This document shows, in pieces, positions 3,776 through 63,113 of a stretch of 64,000 nucleotides of DNA; positions within the stretch are counted from its first letter, which is position 1; the number at the start of each line of letters is the position of its first letter. The translations under genes were made by a program, and so were the position numbers. The DNA is from a virus (lineage: Duplodnaviria > Caudoviricetes): IMG/VR virus record IMGVR_UViG_3300027805_000006. One strand, written 5' to 3'. The notes under the pieces were generated by a model that was given only the letters and a program-made list of their open reading frames with translations, did no database searches and was not told the DNA's origin.

Positions 3776-4126
3776 TTACCTTTCCATCGAGCGTTCCCAC
3801 TCGATGGTATCCTCTTCAGAGTACGCATCAGAGCCGTATGCGGGGAAGGTTTCCTCCCATCGGTCGAATGCGACAGGGTTCTTGCCTTGTGATAGGCGGG
3901 TGGTTAGAGCATTCACCTGCTTCTCGACACGAGCGAACACCTCGGCTTCCTGCGAGTGGTGGAGCGTAACGACATGCCAGCGCTTACGGTTGCCCTCGGT
4001 GTCCTCAGCGACTACGTAACCGGCAATACCGAAGATGTGACCTTGCTGGTTGACGTAGTCAGCCATCTCGGGGTTCGACCCGATAACCACCACATCGGTC
4101 GATGCAGAGAAGTGGGAGATGTTCAT
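3776..4126 (-). CDS. hypothetical early protein
   Basis: Start reassigned to MNISHF (ATG 4126); directly under an early promoter. Confidence 0.7.
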   Translation of the reverse strand: MNISHFSASTDVVVIGSNPEMADYVNQQGHIFGIAGYVVAEDTEGNRKRWHVVTLHHSQEAEVFARVEKQVNALTTRLSQGKNPVAFDRWEETFPAYGSDAYSEEDTIEWERSMER

Positions 4127-4132
4127 GGATGT

Positions 4133-4161
4133 ATAGTAACACACCTACCCAGGTTGTACAT
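4133..4161 (-). promoter_or_regulatory. T4-type early promoter (predicted leaderless transcript)
   Basis: Minus strand ATGTAC-N17-TACTAT; -10 ends 7 nt before the ATG. Confidence 0.65.
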
Positions 4162-4183
4162 AGCCAGGGGCTAAATGGAGCAC

Positions 4184-4208
4184 AAAAGTGTTACTTTTTA
4201 ACACTTTT
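4184..4208. terminator. AT-rich inverted repeat (terminator or operator)
   Basis: AAAAGTGTTA-CTTTT-TAACACTTTT downstream of the DnaE-like C-fragment. Confidence 0.5.
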
Positions 4209-4225
4209 TTCACTCCTGTAACTAG

Positions 4226-4810
4226 TTACAGTCTTCCCTGCTCAATTAGATGTAACTGAAGTACCACAACCAGACTGTAGGCTAAACTGTGACTTTTCTT
4301 GAATTGATAGCCTTCATCATCCTTTGCATAGAGTACTCGCCGGCAAGCTTCTTTTTCCTTTAGATAAAGCCCGACCAGTGCTTTTTTCGCAGGCCTGATT
4401 AGCGCCATGCAATCAGCTAATTCCTCGATGCTCTTTGGCTTGACCTTCTGTAAAAGGTCGCCGTGTTTTGCAAGTTGGAACAACTTTGGGTGAGTTGATG
4501 GAAGTTGTAAAAGTGTCCAGTCGGGTTCTTTCTTCAGCAGTTCTTCTATCTCGCTTCGCGAAGAGAAAAGAGAATAGAAATTTAAATGAAGAAAATCTAC
4601 CTTAAGGTACCCTAGCTCTTCAGCTGCTTCATATGGAACTGCTGCTAACTTCGTGAATGGGTCAACTGCAATCGCCTGCGGATAAACACCGACAGGGTGT
4701 GGCTGTACCTTACCATCCTTCATCACTGATGCACGCACCCACGGGAAGTAATTCTCAGGGTTGAAGCTTGGTGCAGTGTCAATATCAACGTCGCCTCTAC
4801 TTATTGACAT
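4226..4810 (-). CDS. dnaE: DNA polymerase III alpha (DnaE)-like catalytic C-fragment
   Basis: GDVDID corresponds to DnaE PDxDxD, KVDFLHL to KxDFLGL (third catalytic Asp), YQFKKSHSLAY to YGFNKSHxxAY. Confidence 0.85.
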   Translation of the reverse strand: MSISRGDVDIDTAPSFNPENYFPWVRASVMKDGKVQPHPVGVYPQAIAVDPFTKLAAVPYEAAEELGYLKVDFLHLNFYSLFSSRSEIEELLKKEPDWTLLQLPSTHPKLFQLAKHGDLLQKVKPKSIEELADCMALIRPAKKALVGLYLKEKEACRRVLYAKDDEGYQFKKSHSLAYSLVVVLQLHLIEQGRL

Positions 4811-4831
4811 ACATACTCCATAAATCAGACT

Positions 4832-5482
4832 TTACCATGTATCGTCTACCTCCACATCTCCCAACCAATCCTGCCGTTCATCGAAATCACGTTCTCCAGT
4901 AGGAGAAATGAACTGCTCGTTGAGACCTGAGGGCAACATGTTTTCTATAACAACTGTTTTATTCTTGTCCGTCTTTAACTGTGCTGGCAAAGAGGAACGC
5001 TCTCCTGTTGTGAGATCAAGCAGCTGCAAATTAAACAGCTTTGGTCTCTTCTGAAGTGAGATGAGTAAATCCTCCCCATCCTTGAATAAAGTACCACCTA
5101 ACTGATATGCATCGCCAAGAACTATTGGTAGCTGAGATAAATCCTTCATATGGAGAATAAGATGGGCTGAGGCGGATGTCTTCCTAAACTTGGGCTGAGT
5201 ATAGATTACCTCTAGCATATTATACTGTTTTCCGCTGATATTTGTTTCCTTAAACTTGATCCATCCTACAAGTTGCCCCTTTTTCATAAGAGCAAAGAAT
5301 GAGTTCTTGTCACCGTCCTTCTTTATCACCATGCCATGCGGAAGCTTTTTGAAGGTAGGCAGCCTAGAGAAATGCTCAGCAAAGGAATCTAGTTCCTTCT
5401 CCGTATATTCAGTGTATTGAACACCAGTAAAAGTAATCTCAGTTAACTTCATGCTATTCTCTTTTAAAGATGATAACCTCAA
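4832..5482 (-). CDS. hypothetical protein, possible GNAT-fold acetyltransferase, with MKLxEI motif
   Basis: LVGWIKF...LEVIYTQPKFRKTS resembles GNAT motif A; start may be 5482 or 5452 (MKLTEIT). Confidence 0.55.
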   Translation of the reverse strand: MRLSSLKENSMKLTEITFTGVQYTEYTEKELDSFAEHFSRLPTFKKLPHGMVIKKDGDKNSFFALMKKGQLVGWIKFKETNISGKQYNMLEVIYTQPKFRKTSASAHLILHMKDLSQLPIVLGDAYQLGGTLFKDGEDLLISLQKRPKLFNLQLLDLTTGERSSLPAQLKTDKNKTVVIENMLPSGLNEQFISPTGERDFDERQDWLGDVEVDDTW

Positions 5483-5679
5483 TGCGAACCACTACGCAAC
5501 CTAGCTACTACTTGTGGCAAAGCTTCTTTCCATTTTAGCCCAGCCTGTGGGTCATCGGTGTCACAAATGAGGGTGTCAAACCAACCTTTTTGTACCGCGT
5601 ACAAGTTCAGCATTACATTTGAGAATACTGCTGAATAGAAGCGGCCGCTGTTTTCATCCATTCCTGTGCACGTGTTCAT
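5479..5679 (-). CDS. hypothetical protein (66 aa)
   Basis: 4-nt overlaps with both neighbours (translational coupling). Confidence 0.65.
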   Translation of the reverse strand: MNTCTGMDENSGRFYSAVFSNVMLNLYAVQKGWFDTLICDTDDPQAGLKWKEALPQVVARLRSGSH

Positions 5680-6419
5680 AGCCCTACGAGTTTAGCGCCT
5701 TCTGAAAATTCCTTGAAGAGGCCGGGCTCTTGTGAAATTCTGGTATATGCAGCACCTGCATTGAGCGCATCAGTAAGCGCATCTCGCTCATCACCACTGA
5801 TGCTCAAGATATATTCCCTGAATTTTGCAGATGCAAGCAGGAACCAATATGTCAATTTTCGCCTCTTAATTAGTTCCACCAAGGTTTCAACACCTACTTT
5901 TGGATAGATATTAGGGAGTGGTACCTTCAGTTCTCTAGACAGTTCTTCAAGAAGTTCTAGACTTTGGAAGAACTGCTCTTGTGGAGTAACCGCTGCATCA
6001 TAACTCTTTAGATAAAGAGAATACACATTATCACGACACCACAAAACGGGAGGAACATTCCCATTTTCAACCATCAGCCTTATGAATTGCTTGACGTTGG
6101 GGATGTGTGTTTTTGTTGCGTGTTTGGCAAATTTGATGAATTGTCCGTAGAACTTACTTTGGGAAAAGGTGTCAATAGCCGGCACGGTGTGCTTTTGCGC
6201 TCGCATCCATTCTGAATAGTACGAGTACGCGGCTTGCCCAACAGGACTCCTAATTTCTTCATGGCGCAGTTTCTCCTTACAGTTATGAGACATAAAAACT
6301 TTTTCGGACATAAATGCCCGCTCGCAATAACTACAGAACCATTTTGGCTTTTTGCCCTCTCCATCTTGGTTGTAATTTCTGCGGGCCGTTGCCTTATTTC
6401 TTAGTTCTTCGCGTGTCAT
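5676..6419 (-). CDS. hypothetical protein with N-terminal zinc finger
   Basis: WFCSYCERAFMSEKVFMSHNC (C2H2/C2HC-type). Confidence 0.7.
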   Translation of the reverse strand: MTREELRNKATARRNYNQDGEGKKPKWFCSYCERAFMSEKVFMSHNCKEKLRHEEIRSPVGQAAYSYYSEWMRAQKHTVPAIDTFSQSKFYGQFIKFAKHATKTHIPNVKQFIRLMVENGNVPPVLWCRDNVYSLYLKSYDAAVTPQEQFFQSLELLEELSRELKVPLPNIYPKVGVETLVELIKRRKLTYWFLLASAKFREYILSISGDERDALTDALNAGAAYTRISQEPGLFKEFSEGAKLVGL

Positions 6420-6970
6420 CAGATGCTCTTTATGACGTAGCCAACAGGTAGTGTGTCAAGCCCCTCTTGCAGGGTGTTGGTCCAGTAGCTATTTTGCGGT
6501 AGCTCTTCCCTCGTGAGGAGCCATTCGGTGGCGAAGTCAGTCTTGTCACCGCGGTGAACGTGCAAGAACCCACCCTCTGCTCTGAATACACGCTGCGTGA
6601 TGAAGGAGTAAATGCGCTCCTTGCGCTCGTGCTGATCTTGGTCCTTGGAATGTCGTGGTTCAGCCGTGAAGAATAGAGCGTCCATGTCGTGCTCACGCCA
6701 CACCTTGCGAACTGCGTTTAGCACCACGCCGTAGACCTTTACTGGAACTTCCTCTTGGCCTTCATGTGTTGAGTAGGCATCATCACCCTTCCTGTCCGTC
6801 CTGAAGAACGAGACCTCGTAAGTCCTCAAACGTGGAACGGCTGGTGCAGCGATCTTACTTAGCTGCACAGTAAAGAGTTGGTCACCCCATTTGAAATTTC
6901 CTTGCCGGCCCCAGTCTGTCTTATAGAGAATATCCGGGATCTCACTGTCAAGGATTTCTTGCATCTTCAT
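6419..6970 (-). CDS. hypothetical protein with MKMQEIL..E motif
   Basis: Coupled ORF; N-terminus resembles the 52-59 kb family. Confidence 0.7.
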   Translation of the reverse strand: MKMQEILDSEIPDILYKTDWGRQGNFKWGDQLFTVQLSKIAAPAVPRLRTYEVSFFRTDRKGDDAYSTHEGQEEVPVKVYGVVLNAVRKVWREHDMDALFFTAEPRHSKDQDQHERKERIYSFITQRVFRAEGGFLHVHRGDKTDFATEWLLTREELPQNSYWTNTLQEGLDTLPVGYVIKSI

Positions 6971-7422
6971 TCCAACTCCTTCTTCAACTTCTTAACCTGT
7001 TCAGCATCCCATCCAAGTTCTTCAGCCATATCAACTAAATCTGTCGGTTTTACTAAAGTGTAGTGCTGTGCTTCACGGGTAGAACAATCAAAGTACTGCT
7101 TGATGACCTCGATAGAGAGACGATTATTTTTACTTCCTGGTGACTTTAGCCAAGAATACCTCTTTTTACTTCTTGTTGTTGATGCAGCAAGAAGTTTGAA
7201 AAGAAGTGATTTTTCGGCACCTAGTTGGAAAATATAACGGTTGGCAAAGGTATTTATCCTCACAATTTGGGCAGGGTCATTTGTTCCACACAGCCATCGC
7301 ATGATGACGAGTGGTGATGCTGCCTTTTTACCTTCTTCAGAGAGACTATCATACCACCTTAGGTCTCCTTCTGTAAGAGAATCTAGGGCTTTGAAGAGGT
7401 CAAATGCTTCGCGGTTTGCCAT
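6967..7422 (-). CDS. clamp loader small subunit (T4 gp62-like)
   Basis: Directly downstream of the gp44-like gene; SPLVIMRWL...N.F.N...RYSWLK...IKQYFDCSTREA pattern. Confidence 0.7.
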   Translation of the reverse strand: MANREAFDLFKALDSLTEGDLRWYDSLSEEGKKAASPLVIMRWLCGTNDPAQIVRINTFANRYIFQLGAEKSLLFKLLAASTTRSKKRYSWLKSPGSKNNRLSIEVIKQYFDCSTREAQHYTLVKPTDLVDMAEELGWDAEQVKKLKKELE

Positions 7423-8336
7423 TACTCAACCAGAAGGCTAAGTTCAATCATAAGCGCCGCCACGTTGATCTCGGGATCTGCTACGAAACCGTGCCGATAG
7501 GCGTACTCGGCAATCTTCACGATAGCCTCGTCCTGTGCTTTAATTTTCTTGCTCTTTGAGATATTCTCATAGAGGAACTTATAAATGTCCTGCAGTTCTT
7601 CCTTACTTGATTTTTCACATACCAACTTGCGAATTGACTTAAAGTCAGATTTGTCTAGCAAAGGGAATATTTCAAACTTCCAATCTGCGGCACCTTCGCT
7701 ACTTGCAATAACGAGTGAGCCGTGCTGTGAGTTTTGTTCTAGAAGGTGAATGATTTTTCTGAAGTCGGGGTATGCTACATTGATAACCTTTTCGAGGTCT
7801 TCAACTTGGAATTGTACATTCTGCTTTTCCAGAATTTCTGCGCACCGAATGGCTACTTGATTTATGTCTGGAGCATTGAATTGAAATTCCTGAAAGCGAG
7901 AACGCAGCGGTGGAATTACCTTGTTGATGTAGTTGCAGGTAGCAATAAACCGGCACGATGATGGGGCTTCATCAATAAGGGCACGCAGGAGGGCTTGGGC
8001 ATCAATTGACAGATGGTCAAACTCTTCAAGTTGAATTACCTTGTACTTACTAACAGGGTAGGTATGAGCAAAGCCCTTTACCTTATCGCGCATTGCATCA
8101 ATTTTCTCATCAGAACAGTTGATGCGCAGAATGTCAATTGCATCTACATCTAGGTCTCGGCACAGGGCTTTAGACACAGACGTCTTACCAGTGCCTGGCC
8201 GACCGCATAGCAGCAGATTTGGAAAATTTCCTTCTGCTACATACCCCTTGAAAGTTGCAGCAATCCGCCCATCTGAGAAGATGACGTCTTCGACAGAATA
8301 TGGAGAATGAACAATAATCCAAGGCTTCTTGACCAT
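7422..8336 (-). CDS. clamp loader AAA+ subunit (RFC small / T4 gp44-like)
   Basis: Walker A GRPGTGKT, INCSDE, Walker B LEEFD, ATCNY, PLRSRF arginine finger. Confidence 0.92.
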   Translation of the reverse strand: MVKKPWIIVHSPYSVEDVIFSDGRIAATFKGYVAEGNFPNLLLCGRPGTGKTSVSKALCRDLDVDAIDILRINCSDEKIDAMRDKVKGFAHTYPVSKYKVIQLEEFDHLSIDAQALLRALIDEAPSSCRFIATCNYINKVIPPLRSRFQEFQFNAPDINQVAIRCAEILEKQNVQFQVEDLEKVINVAYPDFRKIIHLLEQNSQHGSLVIASSEGAADWKFEIFPLLDKSDFKSIRKLVCEKSSKEELQDIYKFLYENISKSKKIKAQDEAIVKIAEYAYRHGFVADPEINVAALMIELSLLVE

Positions 8337-8412
8337 TTTGCAATCCTTTGTGTTTAGATAAAAAGGATTATACCTTTTTTCAGGACCTGTGTGTCTGCTC
8401 TATAAAGGATGA

Positions 8413-9789
8413 TTATCTACCAGAGCGGTAAATTCCCGGCTTGAAGACTCCAGACTTAAAGACGCCTGTCTTTAAGCCTACTTCTTTTGTATCTTCTTTT
8501 GGTTCTACAATTTCTTGTTCGGGAATTCCAAGCGTTGACTTTGTAATCTGCTCACGTGCGGGTGCTTCTACAATTGTTTCAGGAATTGTTTCAGGAATTG
8601 TTTCAGGAATTGTTTCAGGCGGATTTTGATTATCAGTCACTGTTACTGCTAAAAGTTCCTCTATTTCAACTTTTGCTGCAACTTCTTCTTGAATTGTTTG
8701 AGATATCTCTTTTTGAATTGTTTCAGGAATTGTTTCAGGAATTGTTTCAGGAATTGTTTCAGGAATTGTTTCAGTTATAACTTCCTCAATTTCAACTTTT
8801 GCTGCAACTTCTTCTTGGATTGTTTTAGTTTGCTTTGCTAGAGTTATAACTTCCTCAGCAATTTGTGGTGCTGTATCTACATCTACCGGGGCAACTACAG
8901 TTTCTGTTAATATCGCAGGCACAACTGCTGGAACAATTTCGCCTTCAATCTTTGCCTCTTCAACTGCTACTGTGTTTGGAGCAATTACTGCTGATACAGT
9001 AGGTGCTACCATTTCGCGGCTCATAGTAGGAGCAGCAACTATTTTTTCTATCTCAGGCTCAGAAATTAGTGGAGATGGAGGACTTGGAGGAGGAGTCTCC
9101 AACATCTCCTTGCGTCTTTGGAAAAGCAGGAAGTTTCCAGCAATTATGAGAAAAACTGCAAGCGGGTCGAACACGAAGATAATCATCAAGATTACCCACT
9201 TCACGGCTTCTTCTATGCTAACATCAAATGCCTTTGAGATGTAGAGAATTGGACCGGCTTTTGCTTCAACAGAAATCTGAGAAATTTGAAGAGTAGGTAG
9301 TTGCTGTGAAATTTCATTCAGTCTTGCAGTGACCAGCCGCTGCTCTTCCTTGAACTGATTCATTAAACGAATCTTTTGGTTTGCGCTGTACCTATCGGGT
9401 ATGGCGGCAATACCATCATCAATCTGTTTCTTACGCGCTTCTAATTTACCTTGCTCATCTTTGATTACCTGTATCTTCAACTGGCCTTCTTGAGTTCCAA
9501 CTACTGCTTTTTGAAATTCGGCTGACAAATATCCCGCTGCGCCGGCAGAAGTAATTACCATCGTAATGACAGCAGCAATCAATCCATATGTTCGCATTAA
9601 CCTGTTGAGTTTCTGCCAATATCCATACAACAGCGTTATTACAACCAATTTACCAATGTCAAGTACAACGGCAAGTGCAATGATAATTGGGTTGGCACCA
9701 AAAAGAGTGCTCAGTCCAATTACTGAAACAACTGTCCCAATTGCCTCAATAGAAAAAGCAGCGAAGAAGGTCAGCAGAATAAACGGCAT
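8413..9789 (-). CDS. membrane protein with coiled coil and low-complexity acidic tail
   Basis: Three N-terminal hydrophobic helices, coiled coil, a further TM (WVILMIIFVFDPLAVFLII), then P/E/T-rich repeats. Confidence 0.8.
   Translation of the reverse strand: MPFILLTFFAAFSIEAIGTVVSVIGLSTLFGANPIIIALAVVLDIGKLVVITLLYGYWQKLNRLMRTYGLIAAVITMVITSAGAAGYLSAEFQKAVVGTQEGQLKIQVIKDEQGKLEARKKQIDDGIAAIPDRYSANQKIRLMNQFKEEQRLVTARLNEISQQLPTLQISQISVEAKAGPILYISKAFDVSIEEAVKWVILMIIFVFDPLAVFLIIAGNFLLFQRRKEMLETPPPSPPSPLISEPEIEKIVAAPTMSREMVAPTVSAVIAPNTVAVEEAKIEGEIVPAVVPAILTETVVAPVDVDTAPQIAEEVITLAKQTKTIQEEVAAKVEIEEVITETIPETIPETIPETIPETIQKEISQTIQEEVAAKVEIEELLAVTVTDNQNPPETIPETIPETIPETIVEAPAREQITKSTLGIPEQEIVEPKEDTKEVGLKTGVFKSGVFKPGIYRSGR
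8572..8619. repeat. 12-bp tandem repeat x4 (PETI)
   Basis: AATTGTTTCAGG four times. Confidence 0.95.
8716..8775. repeat. 12-bp tandem repeat x5 (last copy imperfect)
   Basis: AATTGTTTCAGG x4 plus AATTGTTTCAGT. Confidence 0.95.
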
Positions 9790-9793
9790 TTAA

Positions 9794-10123
9794 TTACAGC
9801 GCCTGTGGTTGACAAGCGTCGATATCATTGGTAGCACAGATTATTTTACTGTCGTCTGTCTTCCAAACTTTTTCTGACTCATTAAGTTTAACACCTTCCA
9901 TCCACATTAAGGCTTCAATAAGAATAAAATCACCAGGAACTACGCCATCCACTGTAGGGCCTACGGCCAGCACCTTACCCCACCGTGCAATCTTTTGGCG
10001 ATTTACAGACTGAGGGATGAAGATGCCGCTTGGCAATTTCCTATCGGTGAAAGAACCTTTCTCACCGCTAGTTTCATCAAGGAATTGGAAAATGATATTA
10101 TTTCTGAGTGGTTTAATAGACAT
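9794..10123 (-). CDS. groES: GroES-like co-chaperonin
   Basis: IKPLRNNI, SGIFIP mobile loop, GKVLAVGP, VVPGDFIL. Confidence 0.85.
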   Translation of the reverse strand: MSIKPLRNNIIFQFLDETSGEKGSFTDRKLPSGIFIPQSVNRQKIARWGKVLAVGPTVDGVVPGDFILIEALMWMEGVKLNESEKVWKTDDSKIICATNDIDACQPQAL

Positions 10124-10127
10124 ATGT

Positions 10128-10361
10128 TTATTTCTTCTTTAGTTGACGGGCTTGACCCGCGGATGCTGCTGCCGCCGCTTGTGCCACAGCAAGAATATCT
10201 ACGTCTGGCTGAACATTAGTTTTTACTCCATCGCGCTCATCAATTGCTTGCTTTCGCTGTTCTACGGGCTTTGGAACTGGTTTTGCAGATAATTGTGCCT
10301 TGATAGCGAGTAGTTCAAAGTCGACCATCTCACCTCTGGCGCTGCGAACAAGTTTTGACAT
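10128..10361 (-). CDS. hypothetical protein (77 aa)
   Basis: GGAG RBS; under a TATAAATA late promoter. Confidence 0.75.
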   Translation of the reverse strand: MSKLVRSARGEMVDFELLAIKAQLSAKPVPKPVEQRKQAIDERDGVKTNVQPDVDILAVAQAAAAASAGQARQLKKK

Positions 10362-10383
10362 CGTATATTTCTCCAGTTATATG

Positions 10384-10408
10384 AAAGTGCACTTGTCTAG
10401 TGCACTTT
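10384..10408. terminator. hairpin, possible intrinsic terminator
   Basis: AAAGTGCACT-TGTCT-AGTGCACTTT. Confidence 0.55.
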
Positions 10409-10409
10409 T

Positions 10410-10417
10410 TATTTATA
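10410..10417 (-). promoter_or_regulatory. T4-type late promoter
   Basis: TATAAATA on the minus strand upstream of 10361 and groES. Confidence 0.65.
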
Positions 10418-10432
10418 TTTCCCCGCACCAGT

Positions 10433-10990
10433 TTAATCGTGGAAAAACTCATCTAAAGGTATATCATAAATGATGGGGTCAACAGAATGCAGGTTGAGTA
10501 GAAAAAGAACATAGGAAGCACAGGAAGAACCTCTTCCAACACCCCAAACTACTCCGCGCTCCTTGAAAACATCTAGAATGTAGATAACTGTCCTAAAGAA
10601 ATCAGTCATTCCGCGAGTTTCAATCTCGTGCAGTTCATCTATAACCCGGGTAAATGCTGAGTCCCACTGCTGTTGGGTGTACCGTTGATATAGTTCTTCT
10701 GAGCGTTCATCAAGAACTTTTCCAACAACTTCTGACAGATTGAGGGTCTTATACTTCTCTGGTAAGTTCCAAGAAAAGTTTAGTTTGACAGGCTCTTCTT
10801 CAAAAATACGAATAGTATCTTCTTCTACAACGTTTGAATTAAAAGCCTGGATATCCTCATTGAGGTGGGTGACCCGCATCTGCGTAGGAGAAACTCCATG
10901 AAGCAACGCATCTGCTACATCCTCAGGACAGATGATGCTTGTGCCGTCATATCTCAGCACCCGACCTTCTAGTTCTACAGAAAGTTGCAT
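10433..10990 (-). CDS. dnaE: DNA polymerase III alpha (DnaE)-like N-fragment
   Basis: VWGVGRGSSCASYVLFLLNLHSVDPIIYDIPLDEFF corresponds to DnaE GxGRGSxxGSLVAYxLxITxxDPxxxDLLFERF; preceded by ELHEIETRGMTDFF. Confidence 0.85.
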   Translation of the reverse strand: MQLSVELEGRVLRYDGTSIICPEDVADALLHGVSPTQMRVTHLNEDIQAFNSNVVEEDTIRIFEEEPVKLNFSWNLPEKYKTLNLSEVVGKVLDERSEELYQRYTQQQWDSAFTRVIDELHEIETRGMTDFFRTVIYILDVFKERGVVWGVGRGSSCASYVLFLLNLHSVDPIIYDIPLDEFFHD

Positions 10991-11275
10991 TTATGCTGCG
11001 GCTTTTTCATTCATCCGTACAAGCCGTTGCGCATGAGTTTCCCTCGAAGCCTTTAGGTGGTGACCCGCAAACTTTATAAGAACAGTCATAGGCACATCAG
11101 TAAATGGAAACTCACACAGGAACTGAGCCTTTCCCCAGTTTCCAGTTTGAATGAAGGAACGCAGCGATTCAAGATGTTCTTTGTTGGTTGGGTCAAACAG
11201 GGAGCGGGCCGTAGTGCACACCCGCAGCGAGTTAGAACGACTAAGGTAATCAGGGCTATCTGCAAAATCAGGCAT
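10991..11275 (-). CDS. hypothetical protein (94 aa)
   Basis: Packed co-oriented ORF. Confidence 0.65.
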   Translation of the reverse strand: MPDFADSPDYLSRSNSLRVCTTARSLFDPTNKEHLESLRSFIQTGNWGKAQFLCEFPFTDVPMTVLIKFAGHHLKASRETHAQRLVRMNEKAAA

Positions 11276-11714
11276 TATGCGCTCCTTTGTTGACTTGAAC
11301 TACATCTACACCACGCTCTTTCAGAAAATTTATTCCTGTATCATCACGATACTTTTCCCGAAAGAATACGTTCTTTATCTTTGCCTGCTTGATAAGTTTA
11401 GCACATTCACCGCAGGGAGAAAGAGTAACATAGAGAGATGAGCCGGCACAGCCGACACCACCATTCGCTGACAACTTCATCAGCGCGTTCAATTCTGCGT
11501 GTAGCACCGTGCTTTTGGTAACGAGCGTACCATCTGGCATAACATCTTCACATTCGTTGCTGTCGCCGGCGGCAGTACCATTCCACCCAAATGAAATGAT
11601 GTTGTCGTCCTTGACAACTACTGCACCCACCTTTTTTCGGACGGCATGAGACATCTCGCTGATGCGGTCAGCAACATCCATGTAGAGTAAATTCAATGCT
11701 TCTTGTTTCGGCAT
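11268..11714 (-). CDS. dCMP deaminase
   Basis: KVGAVVV, GWNG, HAELNAL, TLSPCGECAK zinc motifs. Confidence 0.93.
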   Translation of the reverse strand: MPKQEALNLLYMDVADRISEMSHAVRKKVGAVVVKDDNIISFGWNGTAAGDSNECEDVMPDGTLVTKSTVLHAELNALMKLSANGGVGCAGSSLYVTLSPCGECAKLIKQAKIKNVFFREKYRDDTGINFLKERGVDVVQVNKGAHNA

Positions 11715-23943: not shown

Positions 23944-24367
23944 TTTTGATATACTTTTCGGTTAGTTCTGCCAAAGTTAGTCGTGCAAAGTTTCCACCTG
24001 CAAATCGACCACCATACTTCTTCCATTCTTCTATTATAGATTGATATACCTGCTCTGCGGATACAATTTCTTGTGGTTGAAGGTGAATAATTATATCAAG
24101 CGTATCATACACTGTAGATGGGAGAGATCTGCCATAGTATGCTAGAAGTTGGTGTTGCTGGTTGCGGTGAAGGATGGCATTTAACTTTTCTTCCTCTTCT
24201 TGTGTACAGATTACATGAGCACGAGCCATCATATTAATAGTGTCACCAGCCATAAAAGCACCAGACAATTGCTCTTCAAGATTTGAGCCGCTGATTATAC
24301 CAATTGACAGGAGTTGGTGCCTTACATGCTGAAGGTCGCCAACGCCTGCTTTTCTCTCAATTCTCAT
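23927..24367 (-). CDS. hypothetical protein (146 aa)
   Basis: 4-nt overlap with the uvsW C-part. Confidence 0.7.
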   Translation of the reverse strand: MRIERKAGVGDLQHVRHQLLSIGIISGSNLEEQLSGAFMAGDTINMMARAHVICTQEEEEKLNAILHRNQQHQLLAYYGRSLPSTVYDTLDIIIHLQPQEIVSAEQVYQSIIEEWKKYGGRFAGGNFARLTLAELTEKYIKNANII

Positions 24368-25764
24368 GCTGTTGCCTTAACTACCTTCAGCACCGGGTAT
24401 TGGGCTGACTCGTAGTATTTTTTGCGCTCACGATAGTGCTTGCGTGACCACTTTAAACTTGAATGAATATCAACGCAATGCACTCTTTCCTTGTCATCTG
24501 CCTTGCGAAGACCACGACCGATAGATTGAATTGTACGGACAAATGATTTACCTGCATCAATCATCATAAGGTTGAATACACGGTCAATGCTGATACCTGT
24601 GCTTGCAATTCCAAATGTTGCAATGACGATTAGATTGTCGGTGTTTTCAAACATGTGGTACCATTCCGCACGGACATCATTCTCAGTGGCTCCATACAGA
24701 AACACACTATCCTTGATAAGTTTCTGCAGCGCTCTTCCCTGCTTCACTGAATTTACCAGCACAAAGGTATTACCAAATTGATCTGCCTTTGCAATGATAA
24801 GGTCAGCAATAAAGTCAAGTCTATCAGAATTCCTGCTGAGGAAAGTTTTTTCAGATGAATAATCTGGAAATTCTTCTGTTGCAGTTTCTTGAATTTCAAT
24901 CGGCTCAATTTCAAGTTGAGCAAGATAGCCCATCCTGATGAGGTCAGCGGCAGAAATTTCAAATAAGATTTCACCGATTGCACCCCGTAGTGACATCTGG
25001 TCAATCTTTGGCTTTGGGAAGGTGCCGGTAAATCCAAAGCGGTATGCACAGTTTTTACCGTGCTTGTTTATCAACTCTCCAATAGTTTTTGCCGAGGCAC
25101 CGTGGGCTTCATCCACAATAATGCAGTGAAAGTCCTCTACAACAACTGGGTTATTCTGCAGTGCCTGCCAAGTTGCTACTACGGTATAGTGGTGAATGTC
25201 CTTCTTGTTTCCAGAATAAACACCAACATCTAGATTTCCAAGCGTCATGGTGCTAGCAGTCTGCTCAACTAGGTCGGATGAAGGCACAATAACCAAGGTG
25301 CGAAGTTCTTGCTTTGCAAGAATGTCAGCCACACCGGCAATCATCCACGTGTTATGATGAAGAAGCCCATTTGCATCGTAATATGAATGATGATTGGCAT
25401 AAATTGAAATATCGTAAAATTCATCTTCACCATCTGGAATAATATCAACTATCTTTGTTAATCCTGTTTTTGTAACAATTTCATCATTGACATTCAATGA
25501 TGATGCCTTTATTACGCCATTTTTATTAAACACCAAATGACCAGCAGCACACCTCAACTTGCAATTTTCTGTGTGTAGAATAAGTGCTTTGTCAGTTTTT
25601 TTAATAGCAGCAACTGCTAATTCCCAGCCGGTGGGTGTTTCAAATTTAATTTGAAGATCAGAAATATCTACAGGAATATTGACTTCAAATCTGCGCCCCG
25701 TCGTTTCTCCAATGGCGTTGAAGAGTTTCGCAAATGTCGTCAAATAATTTGTGTCTCGGGTCAT
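24364..25764 (-). CDS. uvsW: UvsW SF2 helicase C-part fused to split-intein IntC
   Basis: After ...NGLLHHN|T: VPSSDL, VATWQ, IVDEAH, GFTGT, IATFGIASTGISI, QSIGRGLR. Confidence 0.92.
   Translation of the reverse strand: MTRDTNYLTTFAKLFNAIGETTGRRFEVNIPVDISDLQIKFETPTGWELAVAAIKKTDKALILHTENCKLRCAAGHLVFNKNGVIKASSLNVNDEIVTKTGLTKIVDIIPDGEDEFYDISIYANHHSYYDANGLLHHNTWMIAGVADILAKQELRTLVIVPSSDLVEQTASTMTLGNLDVGVYSGNKKDIHHYTVVATWQALQNNPVVVEDFHCIIVDEAHGASAKTIGELINKHGKNCAYRFGFTGTFPKPKIDQMSLRGAIGEILFEISAADLIRMGYLAQLEIEPIEIQETATEEFPDYSSEKTFLSRNSDRLDFIADLIIAKADQFGNTFVLVNSVKQGRALQKLIKDSVFLYGATENDVRAEWYHMFENTDNLIVIATFGIASTGISIDRVFNLMMIDAGKSFVRTIQSIGRGLRKADDKERVHCVDIHSSLKWSRKHYRERKKYYESAQYPVLKVVKATA
25351..25764 (-). 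mobile_element. split intein C-fragment (138 aa)
   Basis: Block B-like LRCAAGHLVF, block F EFYDISI, block G NGLLHHN followed by Thr+1; two in-frame TAA directly before its ATG. Confidence 0.88.
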
Positions 25765-26605
25765 TTATTATCCATTCTGAATACAAACTTTCTAGGTTTT
25801 TACCGTCAATTGCGCATATACATTTCTTTGCCAAATTTTCTGATTTAGATAACCATTTTAAATTTCGTGGAAATGCAATAAACTTTATATTAACACGATT
25901 TAAAAACCCCGCGCTGATAGAATATTGATGATCTAGATGTCTTATTCCATTCTTACTTTCACTACTTTGATTTATTTGGTCTTCAAACATACGTGCTGAA
26001 ATTTTTGTTAAAATTCCAACATAATGCTTGTATTGTATCTTACGATCGCGCTCCTTGATAAGTTCTTGTGGGATAGATGAAGTTTTTTGTAGTTCTTTTC
26101 TTGAGGAAACTGTTTCAGCCCATTTTTTGTTTCTTATTAACCATAATTTTATGCCTTCTTCTAATCCATTTCTCTCAACAAATTTTTCAATTCTTCCTGT
26201 TGATTGTCTCTGTTTTTGAAGAATTTTTGCTTTCTCAAAATCATTATCGGTTTTCTTAAGAAAATATTTTATGCCGGTGGTGTTTTTAGAAATACTAGAC
26301 TTTTGAAAAAGTGAATTACCTAACGCTTCTCCGTGTCTAGAAATTTTTGCTTTTAGCGAAGAAGTATCACAATTTTTAGGTTTCCATTTTTTTATTTTAT
26401 TCTGAACGTGCTCTGAATAAAGTTTAGTAGCGCGATCTTTAGTAAAACCAGAACAAAATCTATTCAAATCTATTGATGTTTTACTGCTTGATTTACAGTT
26501 ACACAAAACAACTTCTGTTAATATTTTACTCCTAGCGCGTTTAAATTCAGAACCGCAATGCAAGCAGCGGGGTGTATTAAGTACGTGACCTTTCCAAGTT
26601 TTCAA
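25685..26605 (-). mobile_element. free-standing HNH-type homing endonuclease inside uvsW
   Basis: Own AGGAGA RBS plus TTG; CxxC motif; NGLEEG repeat; HLDHQYSISAGF...NLKWLSKSENLAK HNH core; visibly AT-rich. Confidence 0.8.
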
Positions 26606-27089
26606 AATATTCTCCTATAATTCCACCTACACGTATATTTATAGGAGTATTTCCATCAATGCATTTCCCACTACCAGTGGCTGCCAGAATGAAGCCAGAA
26701 GTTGCTTCAAGCGCAGCATTCACAGCATCAACTTGGTATGGGCGGAGAACAACACCTAGTTTGTGTTCAGGCTTGTCTTTAAACCAATTGGCGTGAATAC
26801 GAGTTTGTACAATCGGCTGGGCTTTCCTATTATCAACAATTTCTAAGTCATATCCCCATTTATCAAGATACGGAGTCACTTCGTCCAATAGCCGAAAATA
26901 GATTTTGCCAGCCTTATCAAAAAAATGTACTTTACCATCCCAACGACCGAGCCGGTACAAGGGCATAAAATATGCTCCTTCCACCATTACTGCAAATTTT
27001 TCCTCCAGAACCTTATGATCAGCCGGTTCTAGCCCAGAAATCCTGCAAAACACCTCATCATCTACGGTTATGAAAACTTTTTTACTCAT
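26577..27089 (-). CDS. uvsW: UvsW helicase N-part fused to split-intein IntN
   Basis: RLGRWDGK, LRPYQ Q-motif, LAATGSGK followed by intein block A CIDGNTPINIRV and a stop. Confidence 0.92.
   Translation of the reverse strand: MSKKVFITVDDEVFCRISGLEPADHKVLEEKFAVMVEGAYFMPLYRLGRWDGKVHFFDKAGKIYFRLLDEVTPYLDKWGYDLEIVDNRKAQPIVQTRIHANWFKDKPEHKLGVVLRPYQVDAVNAALEATSGFILAATGSGKCIDGNTPINIRVGGIIGEYFENLERSRT
26580..26663 (-). mobile_element. split intein N-fragment (28 aa)
   Basis: CIDGNTPINIRVGGIIGEYFENLERSRT; Cys1 directly after Walker A Lys. Confidence 0.85.
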
Positions 27090-30646: not shown

Positions 30647-30654
30647 TATTTATA
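30647..30654 (-). promoter_or_regulatory. T4-type late promoter upstream of SSB
   Basis: TATAAATA. Confidence 0.55.
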
Positions 30655-52884: not shown

Positions 52885-52908
52885 TGTATCCTCAGAACTT
52901 TTGTTTAT

Positions 52909-53259
52909 TTATAATGCTACACCCTTGCCGTTAATACTGGTTAGTAGCCAGTATCCTTCAGGCATTTTCTTTAAAGTTAAGTTCTCATCATCGTTTTTAA
53001 TGAGTTCAAACCACTGTCCTGGTGAGGTGTTATAAATTCTGAATTCATTATTTCCTAATGACGTATGAATTTCAACCTTTGTGATGTCCCATATCTGGTA
53101 TGGGGGTGATGACTTAATTGATAAGGAAGCATTTCCAACTGCATATCCATCTTTTATTGCAACCTTCAGCGGCTTATGTGCTTGGTACAACTTAAGCAGC
53201 ATTTTTCCGATAAAAACATCCGGAATGCTGTCTTCCTCGAAGAGTTCAAACATCTTCAT
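52909..53259 (-). CDS. putative internal head protein
   Basis: MKMFELFEE start. Confidence 0.7.
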   Translation of the reverse strand: MKMFELFEEDSIPDVFIGKMLLKLYQAHKPLKVAIKDGYAVGNASLSIKSSPPYQIWDITKVEIHTSLGNNEFRIYNTSPGQWFELIKNDDENLTLKKMPEGYWLLTSINGKGVAL

Positions 53260-63105: not shown

Positions 63106-63113
63106 TATAAATA
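63106..63113 (+). promoter_or_regulatory. T4-type late promoter for the free-standing endonuclease
   Basis: TATAAATA ending 20 nt before ATG 63133. Confidence 0.55.

What the first reader, a model, noticed from the sequence alone, without database searches (positions are those of the whole stretch)
4226..10990. Minimal two-gene DNA polymerase III alpha-like enzyme split next to the active site
Seen: 10433-10990 ends GRGSS...DPIIYDIPLDEFFHD* and 4226-4810 begins MSISRGDVDID. In E. coli DnaE these are one continuous stretch (GRGSGAG...[22 protein letters not shown]), so the break falls between FERF and the DxD motif. All three catalytic Asp equivalents are in the 194-aa half. Neither half shows an intein remnant, a PHP domain or an OB domain, and together they are only about 380 aa against about 1160 for DnaE. 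The halves are 5.6 kb apart with clamp-loader genes between them. Split PolIII-like genes have been noted in some T4-like jumbo phages, but to my knowledge their activity and role (replicase, primer synthesis or repair) are not established.
Basis: partly seen in the sequence, partly recalled or inferred. Interest (0 to 1): 0.8.

Follow-up and report, generated by a model that had tools for sequence, protein, structure and literature searches.

The report
Two-gene miniature Pol III polymerase
Two small genes 5.6 kb apart in this giant-phage fragment encode the two halves of a stripped-down bacterial-type (Pol III alpha) DNA polymerase core. The reading is correct, but this split enzyme was described from sequence in 2021 and its activity has never been tested.

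Summary
ORF 10433-10990(-), 185 aa, ends exactly where E. coli Pol III alpha reaches residue 394 (FERFL). ORF 4226-4810(-), 194 aa, starts at residue 396 with the catalytic DxD.

Across 98 diverse homologues the three catalytic Asp and the active-site Lys are invariant. The steric-gate His is kept in 96 of 98. The GVGRGSS loop is invariant in 67 N-halves.

AlphaFold models (pLDDT 93 and 96) superpose on DnaE and PolC palm plus reduced fingers (Z 10-12.6). There is no PHP, thumb, clamp-binding or OB domain, and no intein. A complex model supports binding: score 0.89, best control 0.14.

This is the "minimal split DNA polymerase III alpha" of group 2.2 (Rak2/XacN1-like) jumbo phages, described by Iyer et al. 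2021 (PMC7824862). This scan has met it at least 70 times on other DNA. It is therefore a new member of a known kind, and its function is still untested.

New here, to my knowledge:
- A rare natural single-chain version (375-376 aa, four metagenome contigs) sits inside split relatives in both half-trees. This is a natural gene fusion of the two halves, which argues that they work as one enzyme.
- The first 69 residues of the N-half form a conserved module with no recognisable fold.

The most likely role is a dNTP-selective auxiliary DNA polymerase beside the phage's family B enzyme.

The parts
10433..10990 (-). N-half of the split minimal Pol III alpha (185 aa): N-terminal module plus the NTP-binding part of the palm
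   Evidence: ORF. Pfam PF07733 E 4e-13 and phrog_11127 E 1e-32. AF2 pLDDT 93.2.
10784..10990 (-). N-half residues 1-69: conserved small alpha/beta module with no recognisable relative. It sits where the PHP domain joins the palm in cellular enzymes.
   Evidence: No PDB match and no convincing Atlas match, TM <= 0.52 to mixed families. L7, R10, G16 and N51 are invariant in 67 sequences. Residues 1-37 touch the C-half in the complex model.
10436..10783 (-). N-half residues 70-185: first part of the Pol-beta-like palm, equal to E. coli Pol III alpha 271-394
   Evidence: VIA-align Z 12.6, 114 residues, rmsd 3.5 A to 4jom 271-394. phmmer aligns 114-183 to E. coli 323-392.
10523..10543 (-). GVGRGSS loop (residues 150-156), the 'GS' triphosphate-binding motif of the nucleotidyltransferase fold
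   Evidence: Invariant in 67 N-halves. Coordinates checked. Touches the DxD strand of the C-half in the complex model.
4226..4810 (-). C-half of the split minimal Pol III alpha (194 aa): metal-binding part of the palm plus a reduced fingers domain; thumb deleted
   Evidence: phrog_11778 E 3e-59. AF2 pLDDT 95.7. VIA-align Z 10.0-10.3 to E. coli 396-782, Taq 457-839 and PolC 967-1297.
4778..4792 (-). DVDID (residues 7-11): catalytic Asp pair, equal to E. coli D401 and D403, plus D405
   Evidence: D7 and D9 are invariant and D11 is present in 97 of 98 homologues. Coordinates checked.
4595..4603 (-). KVD (residues 70-72): active-site Lys and third catalytic Asp, equal to E. coli K553 and D555
   Evidence: K70 and D72 are invariant in 98 homologues. 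Aligned to Taq GLLKMDFLGL.
4289..4294 (-). SH (residues 173-174) in FKKSH: equal to E. coli S759-H760, H760 being the presumptive steric gate against ribonucleotides
   Evidence: Aligned to E. coli 751-770. H174 is present in 96 of 98 homologues. The role of H760 is taken from PMC8485763.
7422..8336 (-). Context, not part of the enzyme: gp44-like clamp-loader large subunit lying between the halves
   Evidence: phrog_168 E 5e-75, Pfam AAA E 3e-16, Gp44_lid.
6967..7422 (-). Context: probable gp62-like clamp-loader small subunit
   Evidence: phrog_225 E 2e-5 and phrog_11758 E 2e-17.

Best explanation

The 185-aa protein supplies a small N-terminal module and the first part of the Pol-beta-like palm, including the GS triphosphate-binding loop. 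The 194-aa protein supplies the strands carrying the three metal-binding Asp and the active-site Lys, and a fingers domain cut to about half size that still holds the steric-gate His. The thumb, PHP, clamp-binding and OB domains are absent.

The halves are translated separately. There is no intein, and in some relatives the gene order is reversed. They most likely associate non-covalently across a large interface to rebuild a composite active site.

Shown here: homology, a clean break point, invariant catalytic residues, one copy of each half together with a family B polymerase in all five complete relatives tested, a natural fused form, and a confident model of the complex.

Inferred: the heterodimer is an active, dNTP-selective, template-dependent DNA polymerase. 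It probably has low intrinsic processivity and works beside the phage's family B replicase, in repair, gap filling, recombination-dependent synthesis or synthesis of one strand. Its real substrate and role are untested.
For: Homology and break point.

Invariant D7, D9, K70, D72 and near-invariant H38, G41, R139, K142, K171, H174 in 98 C-halves. Invariant GVGRGSS and a conserved EFFHD terminus in 67 N-halves. The steric-gate equivalence S173-H174 = E. coli S759-H760 comes and PMC8485763.

Complex model: score 0.89, best of 3 controls 0.14. That mark was reached by 58 of 80 solved complexes and 2 of 110 mismatched pairs in the tool's calibration. The model has about 175 contacts, including the GS loop against the DxD and KxD strands.

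Co-occurrence: one N-half, one C-half and a family B polymerase each in RsoM2USA, Atu_ph07, GAP32, XacN1 and PA5oct. The halves lie 4 to 182 kb apart, and the C-half comes first in GAP32 and PA5oct.

Natural fusion: three diverged 375-376-aa single-chain proteins on four contigs from four samples. They are collinear with cellular Pol III alpha across the junction (PF07733 positions 12-121 over residues 97-207). They are nested inside split forms in both half-trees.

Family size: 341 N-half and 264 C-half clusters, nearly all of stand-alone length.

Literature: Iyer et al. 2021 predicted the same thing.
Against: No biochemical or genetic test of activity was found in the searched literature.

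The enzyme lacks a thumb and every known DNA- or clamp-tethering domain of Pol III alpha. How it would hold a primer-template is therefore unexplained.

The finger arginines that bind the dNTP triphosphate in cellular enzymes (R709/R710, numbering recalled from memory and not checked here) have no conserved counterpart in the alignment. Positions 157 and 158 of the C-half vary. The residue that HMMER aligns to R390 is an invariant Glu.

The complex score may partly reflect the model's memory of single-chain Pol III structures (caveat stated).

A family B polymerase could not be checked in this window's own genome. None of the window ORFs tested against the family libraries is a family B polymerase, though not every ORF was tested, and the full 330-kb contig was not available.
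Confidence: 0.75

Rival explanations
1. The heterodimer is an active nucleotidyltransferase but not a conventional templated DNA polymerase. It could make primers, add nucleotides without a template, fill only very short gaps, or make a nucleotide product.
For: It has no thumb, clamp-binding or OB domain. The finger Arg pair is not conserved. The Pol-beta-like nucleotidyltransferase fold is used by many non-polymerase enzymes (general knowledge). The phage group already has a family B polymerase and a DnaG-type primase (PMC7824862), so a second replicase is not obviously needed.
Against: The similarity is specifically to family C polymerases. It includes the fingers helix with the FKKSH motif and the steric-gate His, kept in 96 of 98. 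That residue only makes sense for selecting deoxyribose in a bound dNTP. A DnaG-type primase is already present in the group, which argues against a primase role.
Confidence: 0.17
2. The two proteins act separately, each with its own function, and their common origin from one polymerase is only historical.
For: The genes lie 4 to 182 kb apart in different phages and sit in different neighbourhoods. The N-half lies next to a GroES-like gene. The C-half lies next to primase/helicase genes in GAP32 and Atu_ph07.
Against: Neither half holds a complete active site: the GS loop is in one and all the carboxylates are in the other. Both halves occur once each in all five complete genomes tested. A natural fusion exists. 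The complex model scores 0.89 against a best control of 0.14.
Confidence: 0.04
3. The ORFs are decaying remnants of a captured host dnaE gene and have no function.
For: Earlier phage papers read the N-half as a 'truncated' Pol III alpha (PMC5259590). Scores against cellular DnaE models are far below their cut-offs.
Against: There are hundreds of diverged homologues with the same boundaries and lengths. Catalytic residues are invariant. Fold models have pLDDT of 93 and 96. Both halves have been kept across phages of Alpha-, Beta- and Gammaproteobacteria.
Confidence: 0.02
4. The halves are joined covalently after translation (split intein) or at the RNA level to give a single chain.
For: Cyanobacterial and some phage DnaE proteins are joined by split inteins (general knowledge; scan note e1-2797369).
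Against: No intein family was hit. Apart from the N-terminal module at the far end of the N-half, every residue is accounted for by the alignment to Pol III alpha up to the break, leaving no room for intein halves there. Nine ORFs lie between the genes, and the order is reversed in GAP32 and PA5oct.
Confidence: 0.01

Closest known systems
Split minimal DNA polymerase III alpha of group 2.2 jumbo phages (Iyer, Anantharaman, Krishnan, Burroughs, Aravind 2021, Viruses 13:63, PMC7824862); PHROGs phrog_11127 and phrog_11778
   Same: It has the same two-protein architecture: an N-terminal NTP-binding subdomain and a C-terminal Mg- and template-binding subdomain on separate, distant genes. It has no other Pol III domains. 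It sits in a T4-like jumbo-phage replication context. It matches both PHROG families at E 1e-32 and 3e-59. The nearest isolates are RsoM2USA, Xoo-sp13 and XacN1, at 48-50% identity in the C-half.
   Different: The architecture is the same. This copy comes from an uncultured 330-kb contig that is not in the phage collection searched, where the best identity is 50%. Its halves are unusually close (5.6 kb) and share the gene order of RsoM2USA.
Cellular family C replicases: E. coli / Thermus Pol III alpha (DnaE; PDB 2hnh, 2hpi, 3e0d) and Geobacillus PolC (3f2b)
   Same: It has the same Pol-beta-like palm with the GS loop, the DxD plus third Asp, the active-site Lys and the steric-gate His. Structural alignment gives Z 10-12.6 over nearly all residues from N-half residue 70 onward.
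   Different: It is 379 aa in two chains, against about 1,160 aa in one. It has no PHP domain, thumb, clamp-binding domain or OB fold. The fingers are reduced: 194 residues span what takes 387 in E. coli. An extra 69-aa N-terminal module is present. Scores are far below the NCBIfam equivalog cut-offs, for example 44 against 1,260 bits.
Naturally split DnaE joined by a split intein (cyanobacteria; some marine phages)
   Same: A family C polymerase encoded by two separate genes.
   Different: There are no intein halves. The break site is different, inside the palm next to the active site. The halves are expected to stay as separate chains.
Natural single-chain minimal Pol III
   Same: It has the same two modules in the same order, with 28% identity to the window's N-half and about 32-33% to its C-half. 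The junction lies exactly at the split point.
   Different: It is one 375-376-aa polypeptide with a linker of about 9 residues. It occurs only in one small clade of AT-rich metagenomic phages whose closest relatives are split.

Membership tests
Split minimal Pol III alpha of group 2.2 jumbo phages (Iyer et al. 2021) | Stand-alone N-terminal NTP-binding subdomain of the Pol III alpha palm, ending before the DxD | tested here: met
   185-aa ORF. phrog_11127 E 1e-32. Residues 70-185 equal E. coli 271-394. GVGRGSS is invariant.
Split minimal Pol III alpha of group 2.2 jumbo phages (Iyer et al. 2021) | Stand-alone C-terminal Mg- and template-binding subdomain carrying all three catalytic Asp | tested here: met
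   194-aa ORF. phrog_11778 E 3e-59. D7, D9 and D72 are invariant. Residues 1-194 equal E. coli 396-782.
Split minimal Pol III alpha of group 2.2 jumbo phages (Iyer et al. 2021) | The two parts are encoded by separate, non-adjacent genes | tested here: met
   5,622 bp and nine ORFs lie between them.
Split minimal Pol III alpha of group 2.2 jumbo phages (Iyer et al. 2021) | No PHP, clamp-binding or OB domains anywhere in either protein | tested here: met
   No such Pfam hit at E <= 0.1. Apart from the 69-aa N-terminal module, the lengths are fully used by palm and reduced fingers.
Split minimal Pol III alpha of group 2.2 jumbo phages (Iyer et al. 2021) | T4-related jumbo-phage genome that also has a family B polymerase | tested here: inconclusive
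   The window has gp44/62-like, gp32-like, UvsX-like and UvsW-like genes, a T4-type terminase and tail fibres, on a contig of 329,993 bp. None of the window ORFs tested is a family B polymerase, and the rest of the contig could not be fetched. All five relatives tested have one.
Cellular DnaE / PolC (family C replicative polymerase alpha subunit) | N-terminal PHP domain | tested here: not met
   No PF02811 hit. The structural match begins at E. coli residue 271, just after the PHP domain.
Cellular DnaE / PolC (family C replicative polymerase alpha subunit) | Thumb, full fingers, clamp-binding domain and OB fold in one chain of about 1,000-1,450 aa | tested here: not met
   379 aa in two chains. 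Only 26 residues lie between the DxD motif and the conserved His38. NCBIfam scores are 18-44 bits against cut-offs of 434-1,806.
Cellular DnaE / PolC (family C replicative polymerase alpha subunit) | Pol-beta-like palm with GS loop, three catalytic Asp, active-site Lys and steric-gate His | tested here: met
   Residue roles are taken from PMC8485763.
Split-intein DnaE | N- and C-intein halves flanking the break | tested here: not met
   No intein or Hint hit. The N-half ends at the equivalent of E. coli 394 and the C-half starts at 396.

The most novel reading that the evidence does not exclude
The 379-aa heterodimer, and its natural 375-aa single-chain form, is a self-sufficient template-dependent DNA polymerase and the smallest family C polymerase known. 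In infection it would serve as a true second replicase. It would be coupled through its unassigned 69-aa N-terminal module to other phage factors, such as the stand-alone DnaQ-like exonuclease found in relatives, or the clamp. The phage would then divide DNA synthesis between a family B and a family C enzyme, much as Bacillota divide it between PolC and DnaE.
Probability: 0.2. Interest if true: 0.7.

Novelty: new member of a known kind. Interest (0 to 1): 0.3.

Why it matters
As given, the finding is a correct re-discovery of a published feature, so it adds one more, fairly divergent, example.

The open question is still worth asking. What does a 380-residue, two-piece family C polymerase core do in phages that already carry a family B replicase? 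And can so little of Pol III alpha polymerise DNA at all?

If it is active, it would define the minimal catalytic unit of the bacterial replicase family. It would also bear on ideas about the ancestral form of that family, which Iyer et al. 2021 raise.

The natural single-chain version found here gives experimenters a simpler construct, one gene of 375 aa. It is also independent genetic evidence that the two halves act together.

Tried and rejected
- Whole-genome search for a family B polymerase in the window's own genome. No genome is held. The contig is not in the viral collection by pattern search. The look-up by protein returned only a 34-kb contig.
- One combined alignment of fused proteins plus both sets of halves (A3). 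MAFFT stretched the halves across the whole length, so it was not used. As a result no AlphaFold model of the fused protein was made.
- An upstream neighbour of the stand-alone C-halves closest to the fused clade, as a possible adjacent N-half. There is no similarity.
- Fold or feature relatives for N-half residues 1-72. Nothing convincing appeared.
- A DnaQ-like exonuclease among ten unassigned window ORFs. None was found.
- Promoter and terminator scan of 4000-11400. Counts do not exceed shuffles.
- TATAAATA count in the window. Five sites against 2.5 expected, which is not significant on its own.
- Literature searches for any biochemical test of the split enzyme. Only Iyer et al. 2021 and genome papers that mention a 'truncated' alpha subunit were found.
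- Rooting the family trees with cellular DnaE. This was not attempted because no usable outgroup sequences were in hand, so the direction (fusion rather than retained ancestral state) rests on nesting and parsimony.

Full report
**1. The observation**

- 10433-10990(-) encodes 185 aa ending ...GVGRGSS...DPIIYDIPLDEFFHD*.
- 4226-4810(-) encodes 194 aa starting MSISRGDVDID.
- They are separated by 5,622 bp holding nine ORFs on the same strand with very short gaps.
- Those ORFs include a gp44-like clamp-loader large subunit (7422-8336; phrog_168 E 5e-75) and a probable gp62-like small subunit (6967-7422).

The family assignment is not a chance resemblance.
- The N-half hits Pfam PF07733 (Pol III alpha NTPase domain, E 4e-13) and phrog_11127 (E 1e-32).
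- The C-half hits phrog_11778 (E 3e-59) and, weakly, the Pol III fingers family.
- phmmer against PDB sequences aligns N-half 114-183 to E. coli Pol III alpha 323-392, ending at FERFL.
- It also aligns the C-half motifs DVDID and GYLKVDFLHL to the Thermus motifs that carry the three catalytic Asp.

**2. Structure**

AlphaFold2 models built on alignments of natural homologues are confident: C-half pLDDT 95.7 and N-half 93.2.
- Foldseek returns only Pol III alpha, DnaE and PolC entries at the top for both halves.
- VIA-align gives N-half 70-185 = E. coli 271-394 (Z 12.6, 114 residues, rmsd 3.5 A).
- It gives C-half 1-194 = E. coli 396-782 (Z 10.1), Thermus 457-839 (Z 10.3) and PolC 967-1297 (Z 10.0).

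Three things follow.
- The break is a clean cut between the equivalents of residues 394 and 396. This leaves no room for intein halves, and no intein, PHP or OB family is hit.
- The 194-aa half covers a span that needs 387 residues in E. coli. Only a beta-hairpin lies between the DxD strand and the next palm strand, so the thumb is gone and the fingers are roughly halved.
- N-half residues 1-69 lie outside the match. They form a conserved small alpha/beta module (L7, R10, G16 and N51 invariant) with no convincing relative in PDB or the ESM Atlas. The module sits where the PHP domain joins the palm in cellular enzymes.

**3. Conservation**

The family is large. There are 341 N-half clusters and 264 C-half representative clusters, almost all of stand-alone length.
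- In 98 diverse C-halves, D7, D9, K70, D72 and P140 are invariant.
- D11, H38, G41, R139, K142, K171 and H174 are at least 90% conserved.
- In 67 N-halves, GVGRGSS, E181 and F182 are invariant, and the chain nearly always ends EFFHD.
- D7, D9 and D72 correspond to E. coli D401, D403 and D555.
- S173-H174 align to S759-H760. H760 is the presumptive steric gate against ribonucleotides and is invariant in Pol III alpha (PMC8485763). H174 is kept in 96 of 98 sequences.

This pattern is that of an enzyme under selection for catalysis with dNTPs.

Two points do not fit neatly.
- The finger Arg pair of cellular enzymes has no conserved counterpart.
- The position HMMER aligns to R390 is an invariant Glu.

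**4. Do the halves work together?**

Four lines of evidence say yes.

(a) The active site is composite. The triphosphate-binding GS loop is in one protein and all the carboxylates are in the other.

(b) The complex model supports binding. The score is 0.89 against a best of three controls of 0.14. In the tool's calibration that mark was reached by 58 of 80 solved complexes and 2 of 110 mismatched pairs. The model has about 175 contacts, including GS-loop residues 145-158 against C-half 8-13 and 65-71. The tool warns that such a pass can reflect memory of solved single-chain Pol III structures, so it shows likeness rather than measured binding.

(c) Five complete phage genomes each hold exactly one N-half and one C-half. 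These are RsoM2USA, Atu_ph07, GAP32, XacN1 and PA5oct. The halves are 4.2, 182, 33, 15 and 43 kb apart. In GAP32 and PA5oct the C-half lies upstream, which excludes read-through.

(d) A natural fusion exists.
- The exhaustive search with the C-half found one 375-aa protein whose residues 190-374 match the C-half.
- Its residues 7-181 match the window's N-half (28% identity, E 3e-19).
- Two more fused proteins (376 aa, 81% and 78% identical) turned up. Together they lie on four contigs from four samples.
- Pfam and NCBIfam Pol III models align straight across the junction.
- The junction reads ...KEFIKD-NKEGIYNIA-DFDIDT. The nearest split relatives end ...KEFLK* and begin MPYIIPDLDLDM.
- In the N-half tree the fused clade (support 99) lies inside a 31-row clade (support 96) of stand-alone N-halves.
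- In the C-half tree the fused clade (support 100) lies inside a 12-row clade (support 97) of stand-alone C-halves.
- The gene upstream of the fused gene is homologous to the gene upstream of a stand-alone N-half. The gene downstream is homologous to one that lies downstream of a stand-alone C-half.

The simplest reading is one secondary fusion, made by a rearrangement that joined the two loci. The trees are unrooted, so this direction rests on nesting and parsimony.

**5. What it is, and what is known**

The window is part of a T4-related jumbo phage on a contig of 329,993 bp.
- It carries an ATP-dependent ligase, a SprT-like peptidase, the clamp loader and a dCMP deaminase.
- It also carries class I ribonucleotide reductase, a UvsW-like helicase, a UvsX-like recombinase, a gp32-like SSB, a large terminase and tail fibres.
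- The closest isolates are Ralstonia phage RsoM2USA and Xanthomonas phages Xoo-sp13 and XacN1, at 48-50% identity in the C-half. RsoM2USA has the same gene order between the halves.

Iyer et al. 2021 (PMC7824862) described this feature. [quoted passage not shown] They report that it accompanies a family B polymerase in group 2.2 jumbo phages. [quoted passage not shown]

I confirmed a family B polymerase in all five relatives. I could not do so for this window's own genome.

Earlier genome papers had noted a 'truncated' alpha subunit and a DnaQ-like epsilon subunit in these phages (PMC5259590, PMC6102473). I found no paper that tests activity.

This scan has reported the same feature at least 70 times in at least 43 other genomes, with the same conclusion. 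None of those notes appears to mention the fused form.

**6. Most likely mechanism**

The two proteins are made separately and assemble into a heterodimer that rebuilds the Pol-beta-like palm with a reduced fingers domain.

Given the intact metal site, GS loop, active-site Lys and steric-gate His, the most likely chemistry is template-directed addition of dNMPs.

With no thumb, clamp-binding or OB domain, it should be poorly processive on its own. It probably depends on partners. Candidates are the unassigned N-terminal module as a docking site and the stand-alone DnaQ-like exonuclease seen in relatives. That exonuclease is a 200-aa ORF in RsoM2USA (PF00929 E 3e-7). In XacN1 it is annotated 2.3 kb from the C-half.

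These steps are inference. The role in infection (repair, gap filling, recombination-dependent synthesis or one strand of the fork) is unknown.

**7. Verdict**

This is a new, fairly divergent member of a published family, so its interest as a finding is low to moderate.

Noticed in passing
L003:1066-2193, L004:519-1649, L005:1827-2957, L006:1292-2422 (proteins P0226, P0272, P0271): Natural single-chain minimal Pol III (375-376 aa) on four metagenome contigs from four samples. Both of its parts are nested among stand-alone halves (59-66% identity to the nearest). Its flanking genes match the upstream flank of a stand-alone N-half and the downstream flank of a stand-alone C-half. I did not find it mentioned in Iyer et al. 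2021 or in the scan's notes.
   Followed up: yes
window 10784-10990 (-): The first 69 residues of the N-half form a conserved alpha/beta module with no recognisable fold relative. In the complex model it touches the C-half. It could be a docking site or a thumb substitute.
   Followed up: partly
window 8413-9789 (-): A 458-aa predicted membrane protein lies between the halves. It has perfect 12-nt tandem repeats (8572-8619 and 8715-8774), giving runs of the peptide ETIP inside a 126-nt near-duplication. It has no family hit. A gene of similar size sits at the same place in RsoM2USA.
   Followed up: partly
window 9794-10123 (-); L017:3665-3991; L001:4004-4318: A GroES/gp31-like co-chaperonin gene lies one to two genes downstream of the N-half in the window and in PA5oct. 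A gene of matching size lies at the same place in RsoM2USA but was not tested for homology. This linkage appears older than the linkage of the two polymerase halves.
   Followed up: partly
window 10410-10417, 26636-26643, 30647-30654, 52906-52913 (-) and 63106-63113 (+): All five TATAAATA motifs (the T4 late-promoter consensus) lie on the coding strand within about 30 nt upstream of a gene start. One lies between the N-half and the next gene, followed by an 11-bp-stem hairpin at 10383-10409. The count alone is not significant: 5 against 2.5 expected.
   Followed up: partly
L013 (RsoM2USA 326938-327441); L016:5865-6458 (XacN1 ORF223): Relatives carry a stand-alone DnaQ-like (epsilon-type) 3'-5' exonuclease. 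It lies 2.3 kb from the C-half in XacN1 and about 4 kb from the family B polymerase in RsoM2USA. It is a possible proofreading partner. None was found among ten unassigned window ORFs.
   Followed up: partly
Atu_ph07 212336-213688 and PA5oct 217618-221395: The family B polymerase itself appears to be spread over two ORFs in Atu_ph07 (418 + 578 aa) and PA5oct (825 + 379 aa). Split polymerase genes may therefore be a wider habit of this phage group.
   Followed up: no
window 26577-27089 (-) and 24364-25764 (-): The UvsW N-terminal domain (PF21241, E 5e-8) is on a 170-aa ORF. It is separated from the helicase core ORF (466 aa, ResIII + Helicase_C) by an unassigned 306-aa ORF. This may be another replication or recombination protein encoded in pieces.
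   Followed up: no
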